Shown one piece after another: positions 2,160 to 34,669 of a stretch of 64,000 bases of DNA. The stretch is taken from the NCBI GenBank assembly GCA_039630545.1, contig JBCNUU010000006.1:17543-81542 (forward strand), in the 5' to 3' direction. The notes under the pieces are model-generated. The model ran no database searches and had not been told where the DNA came from. It worked only from the letters and a program-made list of their open reading frames with translations. Position 1 is the stretch's first letter, and each line of letters opens with the position of its first letter. The DNA is from Endomicrobiia bacterium. GTDB taxonomy: Bacteria; Elusimicrobiota; Endomicrobiia; DTEH01. A program made the position numbers and the translations under genes.

Positions 2160-3452
2160 TTATAAAATTTCATCTTTAATTTGCAACAAAACATCTAAAA
2201 AACTTTTAACAGATTTTTCCCAACTGAATTTTTTAACCTGTTCAAATCCTTTCTTTATCAACTGCTGCCTTAGATTCTCATCAGTTAAAACTTTTAGTAT
2301 TCCCTCAGCAATATCTTCTGGATTGTAGGGATTAACATATACTGCTGCATCACCACATATTTCAGGTAAAGAACCTTTATTTGAAACCACAACAGGACAT
2401 CCACATGCCATAGCTTCAAGTGGTGGTAAACCAAAACCTTCATGTAGCGTGGCAAAAAGAAAAAGTTTAGCTCCCGTATAGAATGGAGATAATTTTTCAT
2501 TAGAAACATGTCCAATAAAGTGAACCTTTTTTTTCAAACATAAATGTACTTCTGTATTTAGTTCCTTAAAAAATTTTTTATCTAATAGACCAACTATTAC
2601 GAAATCTATATCTAGTTTTTTTTGATTAACTAAAGCTATTGCTTCTATCATACGTTTAAAGTTTTTTATAGGATGACTGTGAGCTACACAAAGTATATAG
2701 TCGTTTTTTAAACCATATTGTATTTTAATATCTTCAACTTTTTTAAAATCAACCGGATAGAAGTATTTCTCATTTACCCCCCCATAGATAACCATTCTAT
2801 TTTTAGTTTTCAAATTAAAAATTTTTATACATTCTTGCATTGTTACTGAGGAAACAGTAGCTATTCCAAAAACATTCTTAACCACTTTTGGGAATAAACA
2901 ATAGATATAAAACTTATATTTTGTTTTAAACTGCCTAAACAAAAAAGGAACTGTGTTATGAATGAATATTATTTGCTTTTTCAAAAAAATGTTAGCATCA
3001 TATTCTGTCAAAGAAACTATCAAGTCATATCTTAAAGCATAAACTGGAAAGACTATTTGTGTCCAGAACATTCTTAAGTAATCAGCTAAAACCATTTTTA
3101 TGCTACTAAGCAATCCAAAAAATGTGATTTTTTTTAGAAGATTATTTATTTTGCTAAAGAATCTATTTTTTTCTTTCTTATGTTGTTTTCTAACAACACT
3201 CTGTTTTTCAACTTCAAAATGTTTAAATATAAAATTTCGAGTATTGTATTTAAAATTCAAAATTTGTTTAATATTTTCTTTTCTTACTTCGGTAAAATGG
3301 AAAGGAAACAATGTATAAACATCAAATTGAATGTTTATATGTGGATTGCCATATACATATTTTGCAAATTCATTTATAAAGTTTATAATGTAAGTATCAA
3401 AACCACTGCCTGCTTTGTTTGAAACACGAATTGCATTAAATGCTATCTTCAT
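2160..3452 (-). CDS. Glycosyltransferase family 4 (start likely ATG at 3452 rather than track start 3518)
   Basis: C-terminal [31 protein letters not shown] motif. Internal start [12 protein letters not shown] at 3452 gives an ATGA overlap with the stop of the upstream GT2 gene. Confidence 0.85.
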
Positions 3453-4309
3453 TTTATTGATTTCAGTGTACGAATAATTTTTAGCACTGGTTTGGTATAA
3501 AAATTTAGTAAAAACCATAAAACTAAATACGAAACCACACCGAAATGTTTTTTATAGTAATAAAGCATAGAATTATAAAATATTCTTTCTTTTTTTTCCC
3601 TTCCATGCTTATTCATCGTAACTTGCCAATAATGAATAATTTTTACCTCTGCAAGATAATAGATTTTGTATCCTGCTTCTAATATTCTTTTGCACCAATC
3701 AATTTCTTCCCAGTAGATTAAAAATCCTTCATCCAATAAACCTACCTTTTCTGCAACTTCTCTTCTTATCAACATACAACTACCGCCTACAGAATCAACT
3801 TCTCTTGTTGTATTTCTGTCCCAATCCGAATATATGCGATGTAGTTTCACAGGATTATTTTTCCATATTGTATTTAACAGTAACACTTCAAATAAACCAT
3901 ACAAAAATGTTGGTAACCTATCTGAACTTCTCTGTAAACTTAAATCGGGATTAAGCAATTTTGGTCCACAAGCACCACACTCCGGATGTTCATCCATAAA
4001 TTTTACCATTTTATCAAATGTCTCATTTAGGATTATAGTGTCTGAATTCAATATCATTAAATATCTACCTTTTGCGATTTTTAAGGCTTGATTATGAGCT
4101 CGAGTAAAAAACAAATTCTCTTTGTTAGCGATTATTTTAACTTCTGGAAACTCACTTTTTACCATTTCAACGGAACCATCTTTGGAGGCATTATCCACGA
4201 CTATTATTTCAAACGAAATTTTTTTTGTAGAGCGGTATATTGATTCTAAACACTGCCTTAATAGATCTTTTGTATTATAATTAACAATAGTAATAGACAA
4301 ATCAATCAT
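3449..4309 (-). CDS. Glycosyltransferase family 2
   Basis: 286 aa; N-terminal ITIVNYNTKDLL...VVDNASKDGS...LNSDTII (GT-A / GT2 signature). Confidence 0.88.
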   Translation of the reverse strand: MIDLSITIVNYNTKDLLRQCLESIYRSTKKISFEIIVVDNASKDGSVEMVKSEFPEVKIIANKENLFFTRAHNQALKIAKGRYLMILNSDTIILNETFDKMVKFMDEHPECGACGPKLLNPDLSLQRSSDRLPTFLYGLFEVLLLNTIWKNNPVKLHRIYSDWDRNTTREVDSVGGSCMLIRREVAEKVGLLDEGFLIYWEEIDWCKRILEAGYKIYYLAEVKIIHYWQVTMNKHGREKKERIFYNSMLYYYKKHFGVVSYLVLWFLLNFYTKPVLKIIRTLKSIK

Positions 4310-5662
4310 ATTGAATTAAAAAATAATGGATTAAATACAATTTTACTATTTTTACTATCAGATTCGATCTCAGTATTATTCTTAAGTACTTTATTCCTAA
4401 ATATATCATTATAGGTTTTGATTATAATAAAATATCACCCACACCGTTTATTTTGTCAATTAAAATTCCATTGAAGATAACCTGGACAACTATATATTGT
4501 TTATATTTACTCATATGCAGATAAAACTCAAAATCACTTTTCTTTTTAAATAAAATTGACCATTCCTTAAGTGATAAAAAATTCACCTATTGTGACGATT
4601 TTTTTATTAATAACCTTAAAACGCTAATCATTTTATATACAAAATTTGCTTTTCCAATATCTACTTTACCAATCACATATATGTTGGTTTTTGTTTTGGT
4701 TTTTCATCACGGCAATATTGAACCAACACAATATTTTAACTCTTCCTCAGGCCTCTCAACCATCCTATCCAACTGTCTTTATTAATCTTCATCGTAAGAT
4801 TTAGTTGTGAAATCTTACAAAATCAGTATTTATTGGTCTAAAAATGTCTCTTTTGTCAGGATGTCTATAAAACGTAAGGATATCTTTCGTTTTCATCAGT
4901 ATAAAAAACTCATTAAGAGCATTATATTTTGGTTTACTATTTACTGGATTCATTTTATCAAGAAAATCAACAATTTTAGCAACTTCGTTAAAATTATGTT
5001 GTGGAAATAAAAAAACTTTTTGTGAGTCATTATTCAAAGTAAAGTCAAAATTAGTAAGTCTATCTCTTCAAAAGTATATAGAAACACATTCAAAACCAGG
5101 TATTAAACATTCTTTTTTTGAATTAATTTTCTTGATTTCATTTAAATAGTTATTGATATTTGATACATCTATACCCTGCCTTATCACTTCTTCTTTAAGA
5201 AATTTTGAAGTAAATTTGAATTTAACAGTCAACATATCAGATAGAAATCCATAATCTATCTTTTCTCTTTATAATATACGATGTAAATCTTCAAGCTCAA
5301 TTGTATCATTTGGAGAATAGTTACTCCTTAGACCCCATTACAACTTTAGTAATTGACAAATCTCTCAGATAGTTTGAATTTACAGGATACATTCTCTTTA
5401 CTGGTTGTAAAATATATTCGTTCGAAAGTAAAGAAAATTATAAAATAAAGTAATATACATACAAAAAACTGAATGAAATAAGTCAAACTATCAAAGCATC
5501 CCTTGTGGCTAAAAAACAAAATTAAACAGACAAAATAACTATTAAAGGGAATACACTGATTAAATTATTTTTCTCAACTTTGAACATATTTATGTCAAAT
5601 TTCTATATAAATTGTAGTATTAAAACGGTCCACTTTTGCAGATTTTTTATTTAACCTTAATT

Positions 5663-6330
5663 TTAAAAATAAACTGGAAACCAAACAATGTTGGAAACAA
5701 AGAATAAAATTTTTTTTAAGTTCTTCCATCCATTTGGCAATTTCAAAAATAAACTATGATGTTTAGGTATACCTTTGTCTTGATCAAATGAAATGTATTC
5801 AATCTTATAACCATTGTTAATGAATAATTCTTTTATAGTTTTCAATGTAAAAAATCTAAGATTGTGTTTCATCCATTATTCCTTTACCATACTCACTATT
5901 AAACAATCCTTTTTCATAATCAAAATTGCCAAATAAAAGCTTTAAGTCGTATAGACAATGTGCAACATTAGGAATGCCAGCAATTAAACTTCCATTTGAC
6001 TTTAGAAATTTTTAATATTAAATACACCTTCTGTAGCCATTTAAGGTGTTCTAAAACATTTATATGTAATCAAAGTAATCCCTAGCAAGTATACCAAAGT
6101 ATCTAAAGTGGTTTCGTCTTCAACATAACCTATAATAATTTTCTCATAATAAGGTTTTGCTAATTCAACAACTTCTTTATCAATTTCTATAGCGTACATT
6201 TTACAATTGCGTTTTTCTTTTAAAAACTTCCCAATCTATCTTGTTGCACATCCAATCTTTAAAATTACACTGTTTGGCTTAATTAGCTGAACTGCTTGAT
6301 AATCAGCCCATAACGGACATATTTTGTCAA
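5663..6330 (-). pseudogene. Degraded class I SAM-dependent methyltransferase (frame disrupted; only a 69-aa C-terminal ORF is intact)
   Basis: Reverse-complement translation gives ...VQLIKPNSVILKIGCATR*IGKFLKEKRNCKMYAIEI...: motif I (GCGTG) is mutated to GCATR followed by an in-frame TAG. Intact tail ORF 5663..5872 (RFFTLKTIKELFINNGYKIE). Confidence 0.55.
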
Positions 6331-6530
6331 TGTCTTAATTTTCTCTATGGAATTTCATTTACATTGATTCTTTTTGAATTTTGTCTTTTCTTCGCATTCA
6401 ATAAAATTTGAGAATTTATTGTATTTGTTTTTTTATCTTTTGTCGGGATCTTATCTTGGATTTTACACTAAGATTTCATTTTCATTGTTCTATAATTTTC
6501 GTGCTTATTTTTGTAACAACAGTAAAAATG

Positions 6531-7961
6531 TTAAATGTTTAATTTTATATCTTTGTTTATCAAAAAATTTAAAAACTTCTTTATTTCATCAATTTTTATA
6601 AATTTTATTGAAAAACAGAGTGTTAAAAATAAAAACGGAGCAATTTTAATTTTAAACAGAATTTCTACGACACAACTTATAAAAATGAAGCTTACTAAAT
6701 ACAGAAAATTGTATATTAAGTTTATATTAAATTTTATCAAACATACAAAGCAAATAATAAACACAAATACAACAAATGCTGTTAAATAACTTATAATTAA
6801 AGCAAAAAATTTAAACCGGTAAATAAAAACAATATTTAAAAAATTATAAAGTAGTATCATAACTAACCCATATACACTGATAAATATAAAAGGTTTGTTT
6901 TCAGAAACAAAAAAAGGTGAAAACAAAACTACAAATCCAAAAACTGGTAAATATAAAGAAAAAAATCTAAATGCTTCTACACTTTCTAAATAATTTTTTC
7001 CAAAAAGAAAAGGAAGTATATACTCTGCGAAGGAAAAAAATATAAGTCCTACGATACCAAATATAAAACCTAGAAATTTAGATGAAAATATAAGAATTTT
7101 ATTTTTCATTGCAAAATTCTGATTGGAAGAAAAATAATAAAAAAAAGGCGCCGGGATCTGTGAAATTAACATAGTTTCTATAAGCTTTGGAACCCTTGTA
7201 GATGCAAAATAAAATCCAACTTGAGCTGGATCTTTTAAAATCCCACGAAGAAGTAAAACATCTAAATTGATTGAAAGCATGTATATAAACTGCCCAAATA
7301 GAAAAGTCAAACAAAAAATTATAATCTGTTTTTCAAAATTTAAAATTTTGAAGTTAAAATTTTTAAATGAAATTGAAAAAAGAATTACTAAAAATATCAA
7401 TGATACAAAAAAATTACTTTTTAAAATTGTTTTGTATGAAAGAAACCCATATATTATAAGAATCAAACCCAAAATACTACTTGTGTTGCTTCTTATTCCG
7501 TCTATTATTACAAATTCGTTAAATTTTCCTAAACCCCGCCAGAAACCTTCAAAAGCATTAAAGAAACTAACTAAAACTACAAAAATAATAAATATATAAA
7601 ATATATCTTTTATTTCAGCAGGTAAAAAAGCTTGAAAAAATTTTTTTATGAAAATCATCGTTAATAAAAATAAACTTCCTGCAAAAAAAATGCTAATTAA
7701 ACTTTGAGATAAAAGGTTATATTTTTCTTGCAAACTAACTTTCTGTGGAACAAACTTAGTTAATGTGTTTAACCAACCTAATGAAAGAATAGGTCCTAAA
7801 GTAGATATAAGGTTCCAAACTAAGGAGTACTTACCATATTCATATGGACCTAAAAAGCGTACAAAGAATATATTTATTATACCTGTTACACCCATAAAAA
7901 AATTTCGCAAGATTATATACTTAGTGGTGTCCCAAAAAATTTTTCTGTAAATTTTACTCAT
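6531..7961 (-). CDS. Polysaccharide flippase, Wzx-like (MOP superfamily)
   Basis: 476 aa polytopic membrane protein with an N-terminal region typical of oligosaccharide flippases (ILRNFFMGVTGIINIFFVRFLGPYEYGKYSLVWNL). Confidence 0.75.
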   Translation of the reverse strand: MSKIYRKIFWDTTKYIILRNFFMGVTGIINIFFVRFLGPYEYGKYSLVWNLISTLGPILSLGWLNTLTKFVPQKVSLQEKYNLLSQSLISIFFAGSLFLLTMIFIKKFFQAFLPAEIKDIFYIFIIFVVLVSFFNAFEGFWRGLGKFNEFVIIDGIRSNTSSILGLILIIYGFLSYKTILKSNFFVSLIFLVILFSISFKNFNFKILNFEKQIIIFCLTFLFGQFIYMLSINLDVLLLRGILKDPAQVGFYFASTRVPKLIETMLISQIPAPFFYYFSSNQNFAMKNKILIFSSKFLGFIFGIVGLIFFSFAEYILPFLFGKNYLESVEAFRFFSLYLPVFGFVVLFSPFFVSENKPFIFISVYGLVMILLYNFLNIVFIYRFKFFALIISYLTAFVVFVFIICFVCLIKFNINLIYNFLYLVSFIFISCVVEILFKIKIAPFLFLTLCFSIKFIKIDEIKKFLNFLINKDIKLNI

Positions 7962-23079: not shown

Positions 23080-23110
23080 ACTTTCTCCTCCGTTGGTTTT
23101 AAGACTAAAA

Positions 23111-23186
23111 CGGGCTCGACGGGATTTGAACCCGCGATCTCTGGCTTGACAGGCCAGCGTGTTGAACCAGGCTACACCACGAGCCC
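23111..23186 (-). tRNA. tRNA-Asp (GTC)
   Basis: Manual cloverleaf: acceptor GGGCTCG/CGAGCCC, anticodon loop CTGTCAA, T-loop TTCAAAT, G73 discriminator; GC-rich island in AT-rich DNA; CCA not encoded. Confidence 0.85.
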
Positions 23187-23199
23187 ACCACCCAAAATA

Positions 23200-23271
23200 T
23201 GGGCGGTAGAGGATTTGAACCTCTGACCTTCCGGGTGTAAACCGGGCGCTCTCCCGCTGAGCTAACCGCCC
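23200..23271 (-). tRNA. tRNA-Val (TAC)
   Basis: Manual cloverleaf: acceptor GGGCGGT/ACCGCCC, anticodon loop TTTACAC, T-arm AGAGG-TTCAAAT-CCTCT. Ends placed by hand, +/-2 nt. Confidence 0.8.
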
Positions 23272-23305
23272 TTGTTATTTAATCAATCAAATAAAAACTT
23301 TCCTG

Positions 23306-23380
23306 GGTGGTTGACGGGACTTGAACCCGCAACAACCTGGGCCACAGCCAGGTGCTCTATCCAGTTGAGCTACAACCACC
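23306..23380 (-). tRNA. tRNA-His (GTG) with encoded G-1
   Basis: Manual cloverleaf: extra 5-prime G pairing with C73, anticodon loop CTGTGGC, T-loop TTCAAGT. Confidence 0.82.
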
Positions 23381-23408
23381 ACAAAACAAACCTTTTTCAA
23401 ATTCAAAA

Positions 23409-23482
<74 letters not shown>

Positions 23483-23489
23483 ATTAAAA

Positions 23490-23562
23490 TGAGCCCGGAG
23501 AGATTCGAACTCTCGACACCCGGCTTAAAAGGCCGGTGCTCTACCGACTGAGCTACGGGCCC
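23490..23562 (-). tRNA. tRNA-Lys (TTT)
   Basis: Manual cloverleaf: acceptor GGGCCCG/CGGGCTC (one G-U), anticodon loop CTTTTAA, T-loop TTCGAAT. Confidence 0.82.
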
Positions 23563-23585
23563 TTTTTTTATCAAAATTTTTACTC

Positions 23586-23657
23586 AGCCGGCGAAGGGAT
23601 TTGAACCCCCGACCTGACGCTTACAAGGCGCCTGCTCTACCACTGAGCTACGCCGGC
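23586..23657 (-). tRNA. tRNA-Thr (TGT)
   Basis: Manual cloverleaf: acceptor GCCGGCG/CGCCGGC, anticodon loop CTTGTAA, short variable arm (so not Tyr), T-loop TTCAAAT. Confidence 0.78.
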
Positions 23658-27575: not shown

Positions 27576-28922
27576 TTATGGTATCTCAAGCACACTTCCA
27601 GGAACTAATTGCCCCCTTATGATTTTTTCTTTGTTTGCTTCATAAATTTTTCTCCATTGGGAAGCATCTCCATAGTATTTTTCAGCTAATTTTGGTAAAG
27701 TGTCACCCTCAACAACAGTATGATATCTTTTTTTGGGAATCGTAACAGGTTGTGGTTGTGATGGTTTTGGTTTTTCTTCAATTCTTTTTGTTTCGGCTTC
27801 TTTAAGTTTTTTTTCTAATTCTTCTATTTTTTTTAACAACTCCTCTTGAAGAAGTATTTGCTGAGACTGCAAAATTTGTGGTTGTTCTTTTTTTTCAACT
27901 TCTAACTTAGAAGATAACATTTTAAGTTCTTCTTCAAGCTTTTGTTTTTCTAAAAGAAGTTTTTCATATTCTTTTTTTGAAATCTTTTCTTCTTCAACTT
28001 CTACAGGAAAAAATTTATAACTTAAAGAAATACACTGTTGTCCACCTGTGTCAATTTTATTTATCAAAGAAAACTTATAACCATAGTTAAATGTTATTCT
28101 AGAAGTATATAAACCAAAACCTAAAGAAATACTGTTGTAATCTTTGTTTCCATAACATATACCAAAGGATGGAGTAAATTTTAATTTTTTGTTAAAGAAT
28201 AACATCTTGTATTCAAACACTAAGGAGACAAAATAATCCGTCAAAGAAGAAAATTCAAATTTTATATCAGGTAGTATTTTTATATTTTTATAATTGTATC
28301 TATATCCAAAACTCATCCTTAATGGCATTTTCTCTTCAGTATATAAACCTATAGATGGCTGTAGTATATTGTCTATTGTAAATGCTCCTGTATGAATTTC
28401 ATTAAACATATATAAACTACCTAATGAAAATGAAAAATAAGATATTTCTTTACTTTTTAAAAATACAGGATTGTTTTTTATATACTCATCAAGAGTATAG
28501 GCTTCTTTGTCATATGTAAGCTTTAATCCAAAAGCTATCTTTGAGTTGATTTCTTTTAGTTGTCTACCGTAAGACAGCAGGATTTTGTTTTTAATGTACC
28601 AATCTGTAATTCCAAATTGATTAAATCCTAAACCTAAACTTCCACCCAGAAATTTCTGTGTAACTGCTAAACTATTATTAATAAATTTAGTTCCATCTGT
28701 CAAGTTAGGATAAATGAGGTTATAAGTAACAACCACTTCAGCTACTTTTATGTTCCATAAACCAGAAGGGTTTAAAAACATACATCCTGCTGAACCATCT
28801 TCAGCAGCTGGTTCTAACTTTCTTAAGTTCTCAGCAGAAAAATTTTCAGAAGGAGAATATCCACATAAAAAGTTGTAGATAAACAAAAAAACGACTATTA
28901 TTGTTCTATTTAAATACTTCAT
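27576..28922 (-). CDS. Secreted barrel-like protein with C-terminal coiled coil and LysM domain (putative outer-membrane to peptidoglycan tether)
   Basis: 448 aa; signal peptide MKYLNRTIIVVFLFIYNFLCG, about 300 aa of alternating aromatic/hydrophobic beta-like segments, charged coiled coil (EKLLLEKQKLEEELK...), C-terminal LysM YHTVVEGDTLPKLAEKYYGD. Confidence 0.65.
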   Translation of the reverse strand: MKYLNRTIIVVFLFIYNFLCGYSPSENFSAENLRKLEPAAEDGSAGCMFLNPSGLWNIKVAEVVVTYNLIYPNLTDGTKFINNSLAVTQKFLGGSLGLGFNQFGITDWYIKNKILLSYGRQLKEINSKIAFGLKLTYDKEAYTLDEYIKNNPVFLKSKEISYFSFSLGSLYMFNEIHTGAFTIDNILQPSIGLYTEEKMPLRMSFGYRYNYKNIKILPDIKFEFSSLTDYFVSLVFEYKMLFFNKKLKFTPSFGICYGNKDYNSISLGFGLYTSRITFNYGYKFSLINKIDTGGQQCISLSYKFFPVEVEEEKISKKEYEKLLLEKQKLEEELKMLSSKLEVEKKEQPQILQSQQILLQEELLKKIEELEKKLKEAETKRIEEKPKPSQPQPVTIPKKRYHTVVEGDTLPKLAEKYYGDASQWRKIYEANKEKIIRGQLVPGSVLEIP

Positions 28923-31900
28923 TTTGCTACAATTATTGTCCCAGTAAATGTTTTATTACCAACTTTTATTTTATAAATATAAACACCTTTTGGCACAAAG
29001 TTTCCGTTGGTATCTTTCCCATCCCAGGTAAGTTCTACACCTTCTAATTTTAACCTGGCAATATATCTTAAGTTTAAATCATAAACTTCACCTTCAGGTG
29101 TAAACAAAGTAGGATTGAAAATCACAAAATGAATTTTGTTGTCTTGTGACGCTGTTGGTGTAAAGATTTTTTTTGGATAAATATTTGTAATCACAGGTTC
29201 TTGAGTTGAAATGACTTTTCTTACTACATATTCTCCTGTAGACCTTAAAGTACATCTCAAAATACTTTTTTGTTCATCATAAAAACTTGGAACAAGCACA
29301 TATTCAATATCATTATTAAAAAATACTAAAGGTTTTACTTTAACTAAATTTTTTTCTTCCACGAAATTATCGGATGAATAATCTTCATTTTCTTTCTGAA
29401 GAAAAATTTCTAAGTTTATTGGCTGTTTAAACTTATAGGAGACAGGTTTATTATTTCTAACAAGTTCTAATTTATATTTCATAAATGTACTGAAATTAAT
29501 ACTTTCATTTTCTTCAACAGGTACTGTTGTAATGTTAAGTTTATAGCCATAAAATGAAATTTCTTCTTCTACACCTTTTGGAATAACGATCTTCATTGTA
29601 TCTAAAAAGGGAATAATTCTACTTCCCGAATTAAAGGAAGAAACTACATCTGACGGTAAACTTTCTATTCCAGTTTCTGTTACAACCTTTATTAAATAAT
29701 AATAAGTGTTAAAATAAATATAGTCGGTAAATGTCGTAGCCGGAGTTGAGACAAATTTATAAAAAGACGAAGGGTTTAAAACACCTTCATAGTCCTGACT
29801 GCGATAAATGTTATAGCCTTTAATGTCGTCAGCTAAAGAACCATCTGTATATGTTTGCACTTTTTCCCATGATAAAATAAATCTATAATCAGGATTATCA
29901 TAATTTATTTTTTCTATTCTTGAAGGAATATTTATTACTCCTATAAAGAAAGTATTTTTAGTAGGTTCACTAAAAATATCTTCCTCATCTATTGCTATCA
30001 CTTCATAATAATATGTCATATTCTGTGTTAAGTTTATTTGGGGCTGATATGAATTAGATGAAACTTCTACATCAATTACTGGAGAATAAAGATTTTTATT
30101 GGAAAAAATTTTGAGTCTATATTTTTTAATGCTAGTGTTGGGTTCCGGGTGTGGTAAAGGTTCCCATTCAAAAACAGGTCTTCTTAATAAAATTTCTCCT
30201 TCGGGATTTAAAATTTTTACACCTTGAGGTCTAAAATATGGCACATAAAAGCTTAAAACTGAAGAATCTCTCCACAGGCCTCTTTTATCATAAGCGCGTA
30301 TTTTCCAATAATAAGTTGAATTCATTAAGAGCTTAAAATTGATTGTGTAGACAGTAACTGAAGATGAAACCACAATGGATGTTGTAATGTTTAGCTGAAA
30401 ATTTTGTTTTGTTGAAAGTTTAATTTCATAATAGTTTATACCATCGTCTTTATCAAAACCTATCTCCCATATAAACTGAGGCTTTCTTGTAAAAACTGTA
30501 CTTGACGGGGAAAATATTCCAAATGGTTCTGGTGGATCGTTTTGGGAGTCAATGAATAAATAATTAGTTGTAGATATTTTTTGACTAACTTGATTTTTAG
30601 CAACTACATACCAGAAATATGTTGTGTTTTCTTTTAAGGTTGAAGTAGAATATGAAATAGGTTGTAGTTCTTTGTAGTTTTCATAAGGACCTAAAAAAAA
30701 TTCTACTTTATTGGGTGGTTTTCCTAGTTCACCTATGTATAACTCATACGTTATCTGTTTCCACCACTCTGTAATATTTGCGGGTGCCCAAATTAGATTT
30801 AAAGGTTGTGTTGCCCGAGTAAAAGTATAGGATGAACCTGGACTAAGTAGATAAATATCATCGGGAGGATCATCCTGTAGGTCTACTATAAACATGTAAG
30901 ATGAAATGCTTTTTGTATAGTTTGATTTTGTATCATAAGCTTCAACCCACCAGTAGTAGGCTGCATTTTCTTTTAATTTTGATAAATCTATATTATAACT
31001 TAAAGTTGTACTTCCTAAAATAACTATATATGTTGAATCACCTACTATATAGCTTTCTGCTGATGAAATTACTACTTTATATTGTTCTACATAATCCTTT
31101 GGATCAGAGTCATAACTTTGTTGCCAGCTTAAATTTATATATCTTTCTTTTATTACTCCAGAAGTGATATTGAGATAAAAACTTTTTGGATTTTCTTCAT
31201 AAAAATTTACCCAGAAAGAACCAATAGTAGAACTTGAAATCCCTCCATAGTTATCATAAGCCACCACCTGCCAGAAATATTGAGTGTTTTCTTTAAAATC
31301 AAAAAAGATTTCTGCCTCTATAGTTTCTCCTATTTGTTTTCCTATGTTTGTTCCGGCAGAAAATTTTTCATAAACAGAAAAATTTTGAAAACTTGAAATA
31401 TATAAAGTATAGTATAATATATCTCTATCCAAATCTCCATTGTTTTTAAACTTAAATTTAAAAGAAGATAAAACTATTTCATCATTTAAAGGATATACTA
31501 ATTCAAAATTGTTTGGATCAAAATTTGTAGTTTGAAAATAAAATGTAGAGTAGGGTGTCTCAAAATTTCCAAATTTATCATAAGCTTTTACATACCAGTA
31601 ATAAGTGGTCCTAGGATGCAGATCAAAATTTAAAATAAATTTTGTATCTGAAGAATAAAAAGTATAATAAGAAGAAAAATTAGCAAAACTGCTTATTATA
31701 ATTACATAACTTGAAACAAAAGAATCATAGTTGTCTGGATCGTATACTTGTTCCCAGTAAAATGTTGGTCTAAAAGTTTTAATTCCTGATGCAAAAGGAT
31801 GACTTATGCTTACTCCAGGAGACAAAAGATTAAACTTTAATGGCCTCTGGTTTGAAACTATAAATCTTCCGGTACTTAAAGCGACACCATATGGTTTTAC

Positions 31901-34669
31901 TAAGTATGGTTGCGATGTAGAAGGATTTAGTGCAAAATCCCATTCATTTTTACTCCAGCAATGAACCTGCCAGTAGTAAGTTACAGAAGGGCAAAGCTTA
32001 GAAAGTGTAAACATAACTGTAGTAGAACTTATATCTGAATTTTCTAAATATACATTTATTTTCCAAAAAGGTAAAGTATACCAATGATCGGAATTCTGAA
32101 TTAAGACCGTAGAAATATTTAAAAAATAATGTTTTACAGAATCAAAAGGATCTGGATCTTTAGGTTTTGACCATTCAAAATATATTGGCCCTTCCAGAGA
32201 TGCTGGATTTACTATACCGGTAGGTGTAATTATGGTATAGTTAGAAGGTGGTTCTTTAATAAAATCTATACAAAAACTTAAAGGATTTTCATTTAAAGGT
32301 GGAGAAAATGTTTCTGTTGAACTCCATATCCAGTATAGATTTTGAGGAGCATCAATTGCTCTAATCCTGAAAAAATATGTGGTATTTTCTACAAGCTCAA
32401 GTACATATCCTTCTTGGGTACCTTCTTCTATGTTTTTTACTATAACTGTGGAAACAAAAAAATCCCATTTTTTAAACCAGTCATCATATTCAAATGGTGG
32501 AGCATTAAATGTCGGATTTGTAACATATCTCCAGGCATTTGGTTCTGTTTTTGGTTCACGCCAGCTTGAAATAAAAACTGCATATTCATATACTCCGTCT
32601 TCAGGATCAGGATCCCATGTAGGCTGCCAACATAAAACTATAGGAGTTGATTTAGCAATAAATATCTTTTTACCATCAACAACTTTTTCCGTTACAGGAT
32701 AATAGGTTGTATCATCCAGTATTACTTTATAGAAAGTTACATTTTTTATTAAAGAAATCATACCAGTAGGGAAAAACACATCAAAACTACAAACAGGTTC
32801 ATCTATTTGGTTTACCCAAAAACTTGCAACTGGAGTTTGAGTAGAAAGTTGACTAAATCCAAAAGGAGCTCCTGAATCATATGCTACAACATACCAGTAT
32901 ATTTTTTGGTTCTCATAAAAAAGCAATTCATTAGAAGAAGGTTGAGTATATGGTGTCATCAAAAAATATGAATTAGTAAGTAAACCTTCCTGTGGAATTG
33001 TAATGTAGCTTTCAAAATTTTCTGAAGTAGAAAGATAAATTTTATAACCAACAACATAATCAAAAGGATCTATCTCATATGCATCTTTAAAATCAAAAAT
33101 TAAACTACCATCTTTAGTATGCACTACAGTATTTGAAGGTGAAATTAAAGGATTTAAAGGAAACTTTGGAGCTGTATTTTGAAAGTTTACTGTAAACCTA
33201 AAAATAGCAGTGGTTGAAGAAGCATTTTCTGAATCATATACAGAAAGACTCCAGAAGTATGTGATATTGTCTTGTAAGTCCTTAACAACTATAGATGTAG
33301 CAGAAGTAGACACTTCAACCAAAATCGCTCCTAAAGTGTTACCAATGGTATAGCTTGAGATTTTTAATGTGTAGGTAGATATATAATCTCCGTAATCAGA
33401 ATCGTAACTGTTATCACTGAAAGAGAAACCAGCATGCCACACTGCATCAGACCAATCAAATTTTACTGTTGAGGAAGAAATAATGGTTGAAGTGGTATTT
33501 TTTACTGGATCATATACAAAGTGTTTGTGAGGATAAAAACATGAAGGAGAAGAATTAAAAGCTCTGCAAAAAGGAGATGAAGAAGAAATTAAAGACCAGT
33601 TTAATTTTTCATCTGCTATTTTTATAGAAAAATAATAAGGACTACTATTAACTAGATTATTTACTACTATATTTGTAGAAATATAAGGAGTAATGTTTAC
33701 ATTAGTTATAAAAAAAACTTCCGTAGCTTGGTTCCATAAAGTTTCATTATATATTTTTTGGGTGTGATATTTTATCTTATAACTTCCTGTATAGGTAGAA
33801 GAATTGTATAAGAAACCATCCTCATATGAGTCTTCATATGGAAAAACCCAACTAAGTTTTACATGTCTAAATCCAGCTGAAACAAAAATTGATGTAATAC
33901 TTTTTGGAGGTGAAATATCAGGCTGAGCCCACATTGTTGTTTTGTTAGACATCTCAGAAAGATTACCTAGTTCATCTTCTGCCCAAATTCTTAAATAATA
34001 AGTTATCCCACCAGATAATCCTGTAATCAAATATCCTGCAGACCATATATAAGATGGGTAAGAAAAAGTAGATATTACAATCTGGGCAGCAGAAGTACTC
34101 CAATTGTTAAAATACTCTATATCTGTATACTGAATATAATAATAACCAGAAAGAATACCGGTCATCGTATTGTTGATATAATCATCACTTCCTTGAAATT
34201 TTAATTCAACTTCTCCCTCATGAACTCCGGGATTTGCTTCTATAATCTCTACATAAGGCAACCATAGAGTCATCCAGCCGGTTGCAATATTTGATAAGGA
34301 TAAATCACCCTGAGATCCTGAAGAAATAAATACAACAAAATAAAATGTTGTAAACCTGCTTAAAGAATTCTCAAGCACAAAATTATCTAACCCTGTAAGC
34401 ACAAACAATTGTTGTTGAAGAGGATTGACGGGACCCGTGGATACTACTATGGAAGAAGAAGTTGACCAGTTAACTTCATAAAAACTACTGTATTTTATGT
34501 AGTATGCACTTCCTTCAGGTAACACATCCGGACCAGGATAAGTCCATATTAGCTTTACACTGCCTTCTTTTAGTTCATCAATTCCTGAAATCGAAAATAA
34601 ATCGGAAACAGGATTAGGTTGAGCAAAAACTTTAAAAGTAAATAAACTTAAAAATAAAACAATATACAT
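28919..34669 (-). CDS. Giant secreted protein with tandem Fn3-like repeats and a C-terminal FlgD-Ig-like (sorting-type) domain
   Basis: 1916 aa; signal peptide MYIVLFLSLFTFKVFAQ; recurring TxYYWxVxAYD-type repeat ends (YFWYVVA, YYWKIRAYD, YFWQVVAYDNYG, YYWWVEAYD, YYWYVKAYDKFG); C-terminus LTWDGKDTNGNFVPKGVYIYKIKVGNKTFTGTIIVAK. Confidence 0.8.
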   Translation of the reverse strand: MYIVLFLSLFTFKVFAQPNPVSDLFSISGIDELKEGSVKLIWTYPGPDVLPEGSAYYIKYSSFYEVNWSTSSSIVVSTGPVNPLQQQLFVLTGLDNFVLENSLSRFTTFYFVVFISSGSQGDLSLSNIATGWMTLWLPYVEIIEANPGVHEGEVELKFQGSDDYINNTMTGILSGYYYIQYTDIEYFNNWSTSAAQIVISTFSYPSYIWSAGYLITGLSGGITYYLRIWAEDELGNLSEMSNKTTMWAQPDISPPKSITSIFVSAGFRHVKLSWVFPYEDSYEDGFLYNSSTYTGSYKIKYHTQKIYNETLWNQATEVFFITNVNITPYISTNIVVNNLVNSSPYYFSIKIADEKLNWSLISSSSPFCRAFNSSPSCFYPHKHFVYDPVKNTTSTIISSSTVKFDWSDAVWHAGFSFSDNSYDSDYGDYISTYTLKISSYTIGNTLGAILVEVSTSATSIVVKDLQDNITYFWSLSVYDSENASSTTAIFRFTVNFQNTAPKFPLNPLISPSNTVVHTKDGSLIFDFKDAYEIDPFDYVVGYKIYLSTSENFESYITIPQEGLLTNSYFLMTPYTQPSSNELLFYENQKIYWYVVAYDSGAPFGFSQLSTQTPVASFWVNQIDEPVCSFDVFFPTGMISLIKNVTFYKVILDDTTYYPVTEKVVDGKKIFIAKSTPIVLCWQPTWDPDPEDGVYEYAVFISSWREPKTEPNAWRYVTNPTFNAPPFEYDDWFKKWDFFVSTVIVKNIEEGTQEGYVLELVENTTYFFRIRAIDAPQNLYWIWSSTETFSPPLNENPLSFCIDFIKEPPSNYTIITPTGIVNPASLEGPIYFEWSKPKDPDPFDSVKHYFLNISTVLIQNSDHWYTLPFWKINVYLENSDISSTTVMFTLSKLCPSVTYYWQVHCWSKNEWDFALNPSTSQPYLVKPYGVALSTGRFIVSNQRPLKFNLLSPGVSISHPFASGIKTFRPTFYWEQVYDPDNYDSFVSSYVIIISSFANFSSYYTFYSSDTKFILNFDLHPRTTYYWYVKAYDKFGNFETPYSTFYFQTTNFDPNNFELVYPLNDEIVLSSFKFKFKNNGDLDRDILYYTLYISSFQNFSVYEKFSAGTNIGKQIGETIEAEIFFDFKENTQYFWQVVAYDNYGGISSSTIGSFWVNFYEENPKSFYLNITSGVIKERYINLSWQQSYDSDPKDYVEQYKVVISSAESYIVGDSTYIVILGSTTLSYNIDLSKLKENAAYYWWVEAYDTKSNYTKSISSYMFIVDLQDDPPDDIYLLSPGSSYTFTRATQPLNLIWAPANITEWWKQITYELYIGELGKPPNKVEFFLGPYENYKELQPISYSTSTLKENTTYFWYVVAKNQVSQKISTTNYLFIDSQNDPPEPFGIFSPSSTVFTRKPQFIWEIGFDKDDGINYYEIKLSTKQNFQLNITTSIVVSSSVTVYTINFKLLMNSTYYWKIRAYDKRGLWRDSSVLSFYVPYFRPQGVKILNPEGEILLRRPVFEWEPLPHPEPNTSIKKYRLKIFSNKNLYSPVIDVEVSSNSYQPQINLTQNMTYYYEVIAIDEEDIFSEPTKNTFFIGVINIPSRIEKINYDNPDYRFILSWEKVQTYTDGSLADDIKGYNIYRSQDYEGVLNPSSFYKFVSTPATTFTDYIYFNTYYYLIKVVTETGIESLPSDVVSSFNSGSRIIPFLDTMKIVIPKGVEEEISFYGYKLNITTVPVEENESINFSTFMKYKLELVRNNKPVSYKFKQPINLEIFLQKENEDYSSDNFVEEKNLVKVKPLVFFNNDIEYVLVPSFYDEQKSILRCTLRSTGEYVVRKVISTQEPVITNIYPKKIFTPTASQDNKIHFVIFNPTLFTPEGEVYDLNLRYIARLKLEGVELTWDGKDTNGNFVPKGVYIYKIKVGNKTFTGTIIVAK

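What the first reader, a model, noticed from the sequence alone, without database searches (positions are those of the whole stretch)
4310..6530. About 2.2 kb of decayed coding sequence inside the glycan-biosynthesis cluster
Between the GT2 gene and the Wzx flippase there is no intact long ORF. Reverse-strand translation shows a class I SAM methyltransferase whose motif I is mutated (GCATR then TAG) and fragmented, plus a second unrecognised fragmented frame around 4801-5400 (FLFPQHNF...FYRHPDKRDIFRPINTD). The flanking GT and flippase genes are intact, so the glycan made here has probably lost a modification step.
Basis: seen in the sequence. Interest (0 to 1): 0.5.

Follow-up and report, generated by a model that had tools for sequence, protein, structure and literature searches.

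The report
Dead methyltransferase gene in glycan cluster
A 2.2 kb gap in a surface-sugar gene cluster of an uncultured Endomicrobiia bacterium holds a clearly dead methyltransferase gene plus 1.3 kb of unidentifiable gene debris, which is an ordinary case of gene decay.

Summary
Window 4310-6530 is the only long stretch of the 64 kb window without a gene; its longest ORF is 78 aa. It has two parts.

1. Positions 6358->5647 on the minus strand are a pseudogene of a MetW-like class I SAM methyltransferase. Intact orthologues of 236-246 aa sit at the same place (Wzx - MT - GT2 - GT4 - recA) in related Endomicrobiia contigs. The window copy carries two nonsense substitutions, a Gly->Arg change in motif I and four frameshifting indels.

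2. Positions 5646->4310 are a 1337-nt segment with no counterpart in any relative examined. In most of them the MT stop overlaps or abuts the GT2 start. About 540 nt of the segment (5340->4801) keep a host-like coding periodicity broken by stops. No homologue was found in any protein, family, structure or contig search.

Sequencing error is very unlikely. An independent Logan contig is 100% identical over 3526 nt, 154 long A/T homopolymers lie inside intact ORFs, and two lesions are base substitutions.

The same methyltransferase carries different lesions in four related contigs, so its loss may be recurrent.

This is ordinary gene decay, probably with loss of a glycan methylation step.

The parts
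5647..6358 (-). Pseudogene of a MetW-like class I SAM-dependent methyltransferase (psi-MT). ATG at 6358-6356, terminal TAA at 5649-5647.
   Evidence: Pfam MetW E 1.4e-6. Intact homologues of 236-246 aa at 57-66% identity, E down to 4.6e-87. Same position as the intact MT in syntenic loci L082, L090 and L092. DNA alignments A1 and A2.
6335..6337 (-). Lesion 1: nonsense substitution. Codon 8 is TAY (Tyr) in intact orthologues and TAA here.
6236..6241 (-). Lesion 2: motif I GCATG-Y becomes GCATR-stop. GGA->AGA (Gly->Arg) at 6241-6239 and TAY->TAG at 6238-6236 (codon 41).
6070..6071 (-). Lesion 3: 7-nt deletion relative to all intact orthologues, within the 'FDYILCMNVLEHL' segment. It shifts the frame.
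   Evidence: A2 alignment and script. The minus-strand frame changes from f2 to f0/f1 here.
6014..6015 (-). Lesion 4: 2-nt deletion in an A run (7 A in orthologues, 5 here). It shifts the frame.
5863..5863 (-). Lesion 5: 1-nt insertion (ACAC-AT becomes ACACAAT), followed directly by an in-frame TAG.
5723..5723 (-). Lesion 6: 1-nt insertion in an A run (8 A here, 7 in orthologues). It shifts the frame.
4310..5646 (-). 1337-nt lineage-specific segment between the psi-MT stop and the GT2 ATG. No counterpart in any relative examined.
   Evidence: Only the two ends of window 4250-5750 match the relatives by blastn or tblastx. None of the relatives' cassette genes hits it by tblastn. MT and GT2 overlap or abut in L082-85, L092, L096 and L098.
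4801..5340 (-). Remnant of an unidentified coding sequence. One frame runs about 180 codons, with internal stops at 5271-5269 and 5067-5065.
   Evidence: Translation. Coding score of +19 to +22 bits, against a null maximum of 3.6 and about the 5th percentile of real genes. No homologue found.
6359..6530 (.). Wzx-MT intergenic spacer of 172 nt (342 nt in L082).
3449..4309 (-). Intact GT2 glycosyltransferase (286 aa). It was formerly coupled to the MT. Its stop still overlaps the GT4 start as ATGA.
   Evidence: Pfam Glycos_transf_2 E 2.3e-26. 100% identical to an NCBI Endomicrobiia MAG protein and 84% to L092. Junction sequence.
6531..7961 (-). Intact Wzx-type flippase (Polysacc_synt, 476 aa).
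   Evidence: Pfam PF01943 E 3.7e-12. Full-length alignment to orthologues of 447-473 aa.

Best explanation
The 2.2 kb are the wreck of two or more former genes of a Wzx-dependent surface-glycan operon (tlyA - wzx - MT - [cassette] - GT2 - GT4 - recA) in an uncultured, AT-rich (about 27% GC) Endomicrobiia bacterium.

Shown:
- Positions 6358->5647 are the orthologue of a 236-246 aa MetW-like class I SAM methyltransferase. In relatives this gene is intact and overlaps the start of the downstream GT2.
- The window copy is inactivated by two nonsense substitutions, a Gly->Arg change in the SAM-binding motif I and four frameshifting indels.
- It has since accumulated extra non-synonymous change.
- The following 1337 nt exist only in this lineage, at a junction where relatives carry nothing, a Methyltransf_11 gene or rmlACBD.
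- About 540 nt of that segment keep genome-like codon periodicity in one frame, broken by stops.

Inferred:
- The segment is the remnant of a lineage-specific cassette gene (an ORFan), now also dead.
- The cell still makes and flips the glycan, because wzx, GT2, GT4 and the start of the GT4-GT2 fusion are intact, but without the methyl group and whatever the cassette added.
- GT2 and GT4 must now be expressed by read-through across the dead DNA or from a new start, because the MT-GT2 coupling is gone.
- Selection on this methylation is relaxed across the clade, since the same gene is independently damaged in four related contigs.
For: - No ORF over 78 aa in 4310-6530; the rest of the window is 88% intact ORFs.
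- MetW/Methyltransf hits; intact homologues at 57-66% identity over 99-100% of the reconstruction, E down to 4.6e-87.
- Conserved synteny purL-purQ-tlyA-wzx-MT-GT2-GT4-recA in L082, with recA 82-86% identical in L082, L089 and L090.
- Lesions mapped on DNA alignments with four intact orthologues.
- Second-codon-position mismatch is 0.149-0.174 for the window against L082, L090 and L092, but 0.076-0.101 among those three.
- Overall nucleotide identity is 71.5-73.5% for the window against those three, but 77-81% among them.
- A Logan contig (SRR28200759, seen in 3 samples) is 100% identical over window 3396-6921.
- 154 A/T runs of 7 nt or more lie in intact ORFs. TAA, TAG and TGA all terminate normal genes.
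- The insert matches nothing in the relatives.
- Its coding score is +19 to +22 bits; none of 1000 simulations under each of three null models reached it.
- The MT is independently broken in L095, L096, L098 and L099, at sites different from the window's.
- Literature: in the endosymbiont 'Ca. Endomicrobium trichonymphae' the lipopolysaccharide pathway is interrupted by pseudogenes (PMC4505116).
Against: - The substrate of the methyltransferase is unknown. The best solved relative is an uncharacterised 'putative methyltransferase', 3cc8, so 'glycan methylation lost' rests on gene context only.
- The second remnant has no homologue anywhere, so its former coding status rests on statistics. Stop scarcity alone is weak (P 0.03-0.2), and only about 40% of the 1337 nt show a coding signal.
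- Raw reads were not available, so coverage and base quality were not checked.
- The single lesions in L096, L098 and L099 could be assembly errors in low-coverage metagenome contigs. L095 shows no excess of second-position change.
- The rest of this window shows no other obvious pseudogene, so this is not a generally eroding genome.
Confidence: 0.85

Rival explanations
1. The disruptions are sequencing or assembly errors (for example homopolymer indels in a long-read MAG), and the methyltransferase is really intact.
For: Two of the four indels lie in A runs: 7 to 5 A after 6014 and 7 to 8 A at 5723. No read data could be inspected.
Against: Two lesions are substitutions to stop codons, and one is a Gly->Arg change in motif I. 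One indel is a 7-nt deletion and one is outside any homopolymer. 154 A/T runs of 7 nt or more inside 49 intact ORFs carry no frameshift. An independently assembled Logan contig, present in 3 samples, is identical over 3526 nt. Non-synonymous divergence is elevated.
Confidence: 0.02
2. The 1337-nt segment is a decayed mobile element (an IS or transposon, or a phage or plasmid fragment) that inserted at the MT/GT2 junction. It would then be the event that uncoupled or inactivated the operon, not a former glycan gene.
For: It is lineage-specific and sits precisely between the MT stop and the GT2 start, which overlap or abut in most relatives. It has no homologue among the cluster genes of relatives.
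Against: No terminal inverted repeats or target-site duplication. No second copy in the window. No transposase, phage or defence family hit in Pfam, NCBIfam, PHROGs or PADLOC. Nothing in viral or metagenome contigs. Its codon periodicity fits this genome's own genes and the operon strand. The same junction holds ordinary glycan cassettes in relatives: rmlACBD in L090 and Methyltransf_11 in L095.
Confidence: 0.1
3. The locus is not dead but switchable. Slippage in homopolymer tracts would turn the methyltransferase on and off (phase variation), or short ORFs in the region (78 aa at 4801-5037, 55 aa at 5068-5235) would be functional small proteins.
For: Surface-glycan modification genes are classic phase-variable loci (general knowledge). 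Two indels lie in A runs. A 50-aa product of this region has been called as a gene in the public collection (P0142).
Against: Restoring the frame would need four independent indel reversions plus two stop-codon reversions and a motif I reversion. The short ORFs have no homologue among 1.84 billion representative proteins other than the sequence itself. The AF2 model of the 87-aa piece is unstructured or uncertain, with pLDDT 45.
Confidence: 0.03

Closest known systems
MetW-like / Methyltransf_23 class I SAM-dependent methyltransferases of polysaccharide gene clusters (Pfam PF07021, PF13489; nearest solved structure PDB 3cc8, 'putative methyltransferase')
   Same: Full-length homology of the reconstructed product, with E down to 4.6e-87 to intact 236-246 aa proteins. 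Same position between wzx and GT2 as in related Endomicrobiia. Recognisable motif I region and the C-terminal 'LFGFQFIFK' end.
   Different: Not a functional member. It has two premature stops, four frameshifts and Gly->Arg in motif I. The substrate of the family branch is uncharacterised.
Pseudogenes interrupting lipopolysaccharide and cell-envelope pathways in the endosymbiont 'Candidatus Endomicrobium trichonymphae' Rs-D17 (as summarised in PMC4505116)
   Same: Same bacterial class. It is the same kind of event: envelope-glycan genes decaying while their neighbours stay intact.
   Different: This genome is only distantly related to named Endomicrobium (recA about 66% to Ca. E. macrotermitis). 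The rest of the 64 kb window is densely and intactly coding, so there is no sign here of genome-wide erosion. The lifestyle is unknown.
Variable cassette regions of Wzx-dependent O-antigen and capsule clusters, where serotype-specific modification genes are swapped or inactivated
   Same: There is a conserved frame (wzx ... GT2-GT4) with a variable slot. Relatives carry 0 genes, a Methyltransf_11 gene or rmlACBD between MT and GT2, and other cassettes between wzx and MT.
   Different: No Wzy polymerase or initiating transferase was identified next to it in the window. The cassette remnant here has no detectable homologue at all.

Membership tests
Class I SAM-dependent methyltransferase (MetW-like, PF07021 / Methyltransf_23) | Significant sequence homology across the whole domain | tested here: met
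   PF07021 at 28.5 bits against a cut-off of 21, residues 6-178. 57-66% identity over 99-100% of the reconstruction to intact proteins, E down to 4.6e-87.
Class I SAM-dependent methyltransferase (MetW-like, PF07021 / Methyltransf_23) | Intact glycine-rich SAM-binding motif I (here EIGCATGYIG in orthologues) | tested here: not met
   The window reads KIGCATR-stop-IG: GGA->AGA and TAY->TAG at 6241-6236.
Class I SAM-dependent methyltransferase (MetW-like, PF07021 / Methyltransf_23) | Uninterrupted reading frame of about 237 codons | tested here: not met
   Two stops and four frameshifts; the longest surviving ORF piece is 69 aa.
Pseudogene (unitary, non-processed) | Orthology by sequence and by conserved gene order to a gene that is intact in relatives | tested here: met
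   purL-purQ-tlyA-wzx-MT-GT2-GT4-recA in L082, and the same frame in L090 and L092.
Pseudogene (unitary, non-processed) | Multiple disabling lesions that are not sequencing artefacts | tested here: met
   Six lesions. Identical independent Logan contig. Homopolymers are intact elsewhere. Raw reads were not available.
Pseudogene (unitary, non-processed) | Signature of relaxed selection after inactivation | tested here: met
   The second-codon-position mismatch rate is about 1.7 times that among intact orthologues: 0.149-0.174 against 0.076-0.101.
Insertion sequence or transposon remnant (considered for 4310-5646) | Terminal inverted repeats, target-site duplication, transposase homology or multiple copies | tested here: not met
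   No convincing TIR or TSD. No other copy in the window. No family hits.
Known glycan-cluster gene families (considered for 4310-5646: rml genes, GT, Methyltransf_11, Wzy) | Detectable homology to a cluster gene of relatives or to any profile library | tested here: not met
   tblastx and tblastn against all cluster genes of L082-L099 found nothing in the segment. Pfam, NCBIfam and PDB gave nothing significant. A search of 1.84 billion representative proteins gave only a self hit. The 180-codon frame is hydrophilic, so it is not Wzy-like (read from the translation).
Wzx-dependent surface-glycan (O-antigen-like) gene cluster | Wzx flippase plus glycosyltransferases in one operon | tested here: met
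   Polysacc_synt, GT2, GT4 and a GT4-GT2 fusion beyond recA.
Wzx-dependent surface-glycan (O-antigen-like) gene cluster | Wzy polymerase, chain-length regulator and initiating phosphoglycosyltransferase | not tested
   None is evident between tlyA and recA. The rest of the genome lies outside the window.

The most novel reading that the evidence does not exclude
The methylation step of this conserved Endomicrobiia glycan module is being lost convergently. Five lineages (the window, L095, L096, L098 and L099) carry different, independent lesions in the same methyltransferase, while the coupled GT2 is kept in all but L095, where it too is split in two. In addition, the 1.3 kb next to it would be the fossil of a true ORFan glycan-modifying gene with no relative among about 15 billion predicted proteins. 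This would point to a repeated shift in selection on the cell surface, such as a move into a protected or intracellular niche or escape from a phage or host receptor, and not to random decay.
Probability: 0.3. Interest if true: 0.4.

Novelty: new member of a known kind. Interest (0 to 1): 0.2.

Why it matters
In itself this matters little. It is a well-documented pseudogene in a surface-polysaccharide cluster, a common outcome in host-associated or niche-restricted bacteria and one already described for Endomicrobia endosymbionts.

Its practical value is for annotation. The 2.2 kb should be labelled as one methyltransferase pseudogene plus an unidentified remnant, not as hypothetical short ORFs; a 50-aa fragment of it is already in public protein collections.

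The mildly interesting point is comparative. The same methyltransferase appears independently damaged in several related contigs, and the MT/GT2 junction is a cassette slot. The locus could therefore serve as a marker for surface-glycan diversification and relaxed selection in this little-known class.

Tried and rejected
- A genome-contig scan with Wzx found no relative. With recA it found only distant genomes, at most 66% identity, so GTDB species representatives hold no close genome.
- For the second remnant, all of these gave nothing significant:
  - the word-indexed search of 5.8 billion proteins;
  - Pfam, NCBIfam, PHROGs and PADLOC;
  - PDB phmmer, best E 0.073;
  - full phmmer of the 87-aa stop-free piece against 1.84 billion representatives, which returned only a 50-aa self hit;
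  - metagenome and viral contig scans.
- The AlphaFold2 model of the 87-aa piece had pLDDT 45, so no fold search was run.
- A short similarity between the GT2 N-terminus and 5342-5370 / 5168-5197 (repeats D1 and D2) suggested a decayed GT2 duplicate. I rejected it: the spacings are inconsistent, there is no GT2 Pfam signal and no significant tblastx hit.
- rmlACBD, which sits between MT and GT2 in L090, was tested as the ancestor of the insert and rejected.
- Promoter-like sites are not enriched (19 found, 17.9 expected) and no terminator was found, so nothing can be said about how GT2 is now transcribed.
- The look-up of the NCBI version of GT2 (P0022) found no record, so the assembly accession of this MAG was not obtained.

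Full report
**Observation**

Window 4310-6530 lies between the start of a GT2 glycosyltransferase (3449-4309, minus strand) and the stop of a Wzx-type flippase (6531-7961, minus strand). No ORF in any of the six frames exceeds 78 aa there. The rest of the window is tightly packed with long ORFs, mostly on the minus strand. Intact ORFs cover 88% of it, and no other gene-free stretch exceeds about 0.6 kb. GC content is about 25-27% across the region, like its surroundings.

**Organism and context**

The GT2 protein is 100% identical to an NCBI protein named 'MAG: glycosyltransferase family 2 protein [Endomicrobiia bacterium]'. The best recA matches among GTDB species representatives reach only about 65-66%, among them Elusimicrobiaceae and Ca. 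Endomicrobium macrotermitis. Metagenome contigs reached through protein hits are much closer, with recA 82-86% identical, and share the gene order.

- In L082 (GCA_964521665.1) the order is dxs - GYD - purS - purL - purQ - tlyA - wzx - MT - GT2 - GT4 - recA - GT4/GT2 fusion - asnB.
- The window has the same order, with the 2.2 kb gap where the MT should be.
- Pfam assignments of the flanking genes are Polysacc_synt (wzx), Glycos_transf_2, Glycos_transf_1 and FtsJ/S4 (tlyA).

**Part 1: the methyltransferase pseudogene (6358->5647, minus strand)**

A frame-corrected reconstruction hits Pfam MetW above its gathering score. It also finds 19 proteins at 52-66% identity (the full-length ones 234-246 aa), best E 4.6e-87, all carrying MetW and Methyltransf_23/11/25 domains.

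DNA alignments with four intact orthologues (L082, L089, L090, L092) give the lesions:

| Lesion | Window position | Change |
|---|---|---|
| 1 | 6337-6335 | codon 8 TAY->TAA |
| 2 | 6241-6236 | motif I GGA->AGA (Gly->Arg), directly followed by TAY->TAG |
| 3 | after 6070 | 7-nt deletion |
| 4 | after 6014 | 2-nt deletion in an A run |
| 5 | 5863 | 1-nt insertion |
| 6 | 5723 | 1-nt insertion in an A run |

- The original start (ATG at 6358) and a stop (TAA at 5649-5647) are still recognisable.
- A 3-periodic Markov coding score follows the predicted frame changes along the remnant.
- Nucleotide identity to L082, L090 and L092 is 71.5-73.5%, against 77-81% among those three.
- Second-codon-position mismatches are 0.149-0.174, against 0.076-0.101.

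The copy has therefore drifted under relaxed constraint since it died. Most of its divergence still carries the third-position bias of its functional past.

**Are the lesions errors?**

- Three of the changes are base substitutions.
- 154 A/T homopolymers of 7 nt or more lie inside intact ORFs of the same window, with no frameshift.
- TAA, TGA and TAG all terminate normal genes (28, 16 and 5 times), so no stop-codon reassignment is involved.
- A contig assembled independently by Logan from SRR28200759, recorded in 3 samples, is 100% identical over window 3396-6921.
- Raw reads could not be examined.

**Part 2: the 1337-nt segment (5646->4310)**

In L082-L085, L092 and L096 the MT stop overlaps the GT2 start. 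In L098 the two are 18 nt apart. The window has 1337 nt between the two points.

- Only the two ends of window 4250-5750, the MT C-terminus and the GT2 N-terminus, match any relative by blastn or tblastx.
- None of the cassette genes that relatives carry hits it. These include rmlACBD between MT and GT2 in L090, a Methyltransf_11 gene in L095, and B12-binding, radical-SAM and GT1 genes between wzx and MT in L092 and L099.
- It has no second copy in the window, and no terminal inverted repeats or target duplications.
- One minus-strand frame runs from 5340 to 4801, about 180 codons, with internal stops at 5271-5269 and 5067-5065.
- Stop scarcity alone is only weakly unusual for such AT-rich DNA (P 0.03-0.2).
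- The 3-periodic coding score of this stretch is +19 to +22 bits. Markov nulls average -31 to -35 (sd about 9), with a maximum of 3.6 in 1000 simulations. Real genes average 49 bits (sd 16, 5th percentile 22).
- The score is thus similar per base to the surviving pieces of the MT pseudogene. The remaining roughly 800 nt have little or no coding signal.

No homologue was found by any route. These were word-indexed search of 5.8 billion proteins, Pfam, NCBIfam, PHROGs and PADLOC, PDB, full phmmer of the 87-aa stop-free piece against 1.84 billion representatives (only a 50-aa self hit), and metagenome and viral contig scans. A single-sequence AlphaFold2 model was uninformative, with pLDDT 45.

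I read the segment as the fossil of a lineage-specific cassette gene in a slot that is variable among relatives. A decayed mobile element is the main alternative, at about 0.1.

**Consequences (inferred)**

wzx, GT2 and GT4 align full length to orthologues, as does the first 328 codons of the GT4/GT2 fusion, which runs off the window edge. GT2 and GT4 still overlap as ATGA. The glycan is therefore probably still built and exported, but without the methyl group and whatever the cassette added.

The methyltransferase's substrate is unknown. Its nearest solved relative, 3cc8, is an uncharacterised structural-genomics protein. The only functional hint is context. Some GT2 homologues at 44-46% identity are named rhamnosyltransferases by JGI, and L090 places rmlACBD directly upstream of an 80%-identical GT2.

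How GT2 is now expressed is open. Promoter-like motifs are no more frequent than in shuffled sequence, and no terminator was found in the dead DNA. Read-through from wzx is therefore plausible.

**Comparative point**

The same methyltransferase is damaged, at different sites, in four related contigs.

- L095 has at least three frameshifts and two stops, and its GT2 is also split.
- L096 has one stop.
- L098 has a frameshift and a stop.
- L099 has a +1 C insertion 17 nt away from the window's +1 A.
- None of the window's lesions is shared with L095; its codon 8 and motif I are intact.

This suggests recurrent loss of the step in the clade. The single-lesion cases could still be assembly errors, and L095 shows no excess of non-synonymous change. 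Envelope-glycan pseudogenes are a described feature of Endomicrobia endosymbionts (PMC4505116).

**Verdict**

What is there is an ordinary, well-supported pseudogene plus an unidentifiable gene remnant in a variable glycan cluster. It is a new instance of a known kind of event, of low general interest. The one modest comparative angle is the possible convergent loss of a glycan methyltransferase in Endomicrobiia.

Noticed in passing
L082:7713-7853: The Wzx-MT spacer of the relative L082 holds a second, partial copy of the methyltransferase N-terminus (aa 1-47, 62% identity, one stop), upstream of its intact MT. This looks like a remnant of an old duplication or recombination at the cassette border.
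   Followed up: no
L089:5003-7999 and L095:6330-8609: Related contigs show strings of short gene fragments in the same cluster. L089 has products of 73, 155, 131, 178, 72, 86 and 86 aa, with Methyltransf_11 and GT1 pieces. L095 has its MT in pieces and its GT2 split into 82 + 202 aa. Decay of this glycan cluster is therefore not confined to the window's genome.
   Followed up: partly
L090:4708-8004; L092:1476-3698; L099:538-6017: The slots between wzx and MT, and between MT and GT2, are hypervariable among relatives. L090 has rmlACBD. L092 has a B12-binding gene, a GT1 and a bAvd/23S_rRNA_IVP gene. L099 has a second MetW-like MT, a radical-SAM gene, a GT1 and a UDP-GlcNAc 2-epimerase.
   Followed up: no
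window 3440-3518: The mechanical ORF for GT4 starts at 3518 and overlaps GT2 by 70 nt. Orthologue alignments start at ATG 3452, which overlaps the GT2 stop as ATGA, so the real GT4 is probably 3452->2160.
   Followed up: partly
window 28919-34669 (-): This is a 1916-aa ORF with an N-terminal hydrophobic segment and a long repetitive, Ser/Thr/Tyr-rich body. It is probably a giant surface protein and was not analysed.
   Followed up: no
window 23110-23657 (-): This is a tight cluster of six tRNA genes: Thr-TGT, Lys-TTT, Arg-TCT, His-GTG, Val-TAC and Asp-GTC.
   Followed up: no
window 4804-4953 (-): A 50-aa product of the dead region, identical to part of the 87-aa piece, is already present as a predicted protein (P0142) in the public protein collection. 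Pseudogene debris is thus being annotated as a gene.
   Followed up: no
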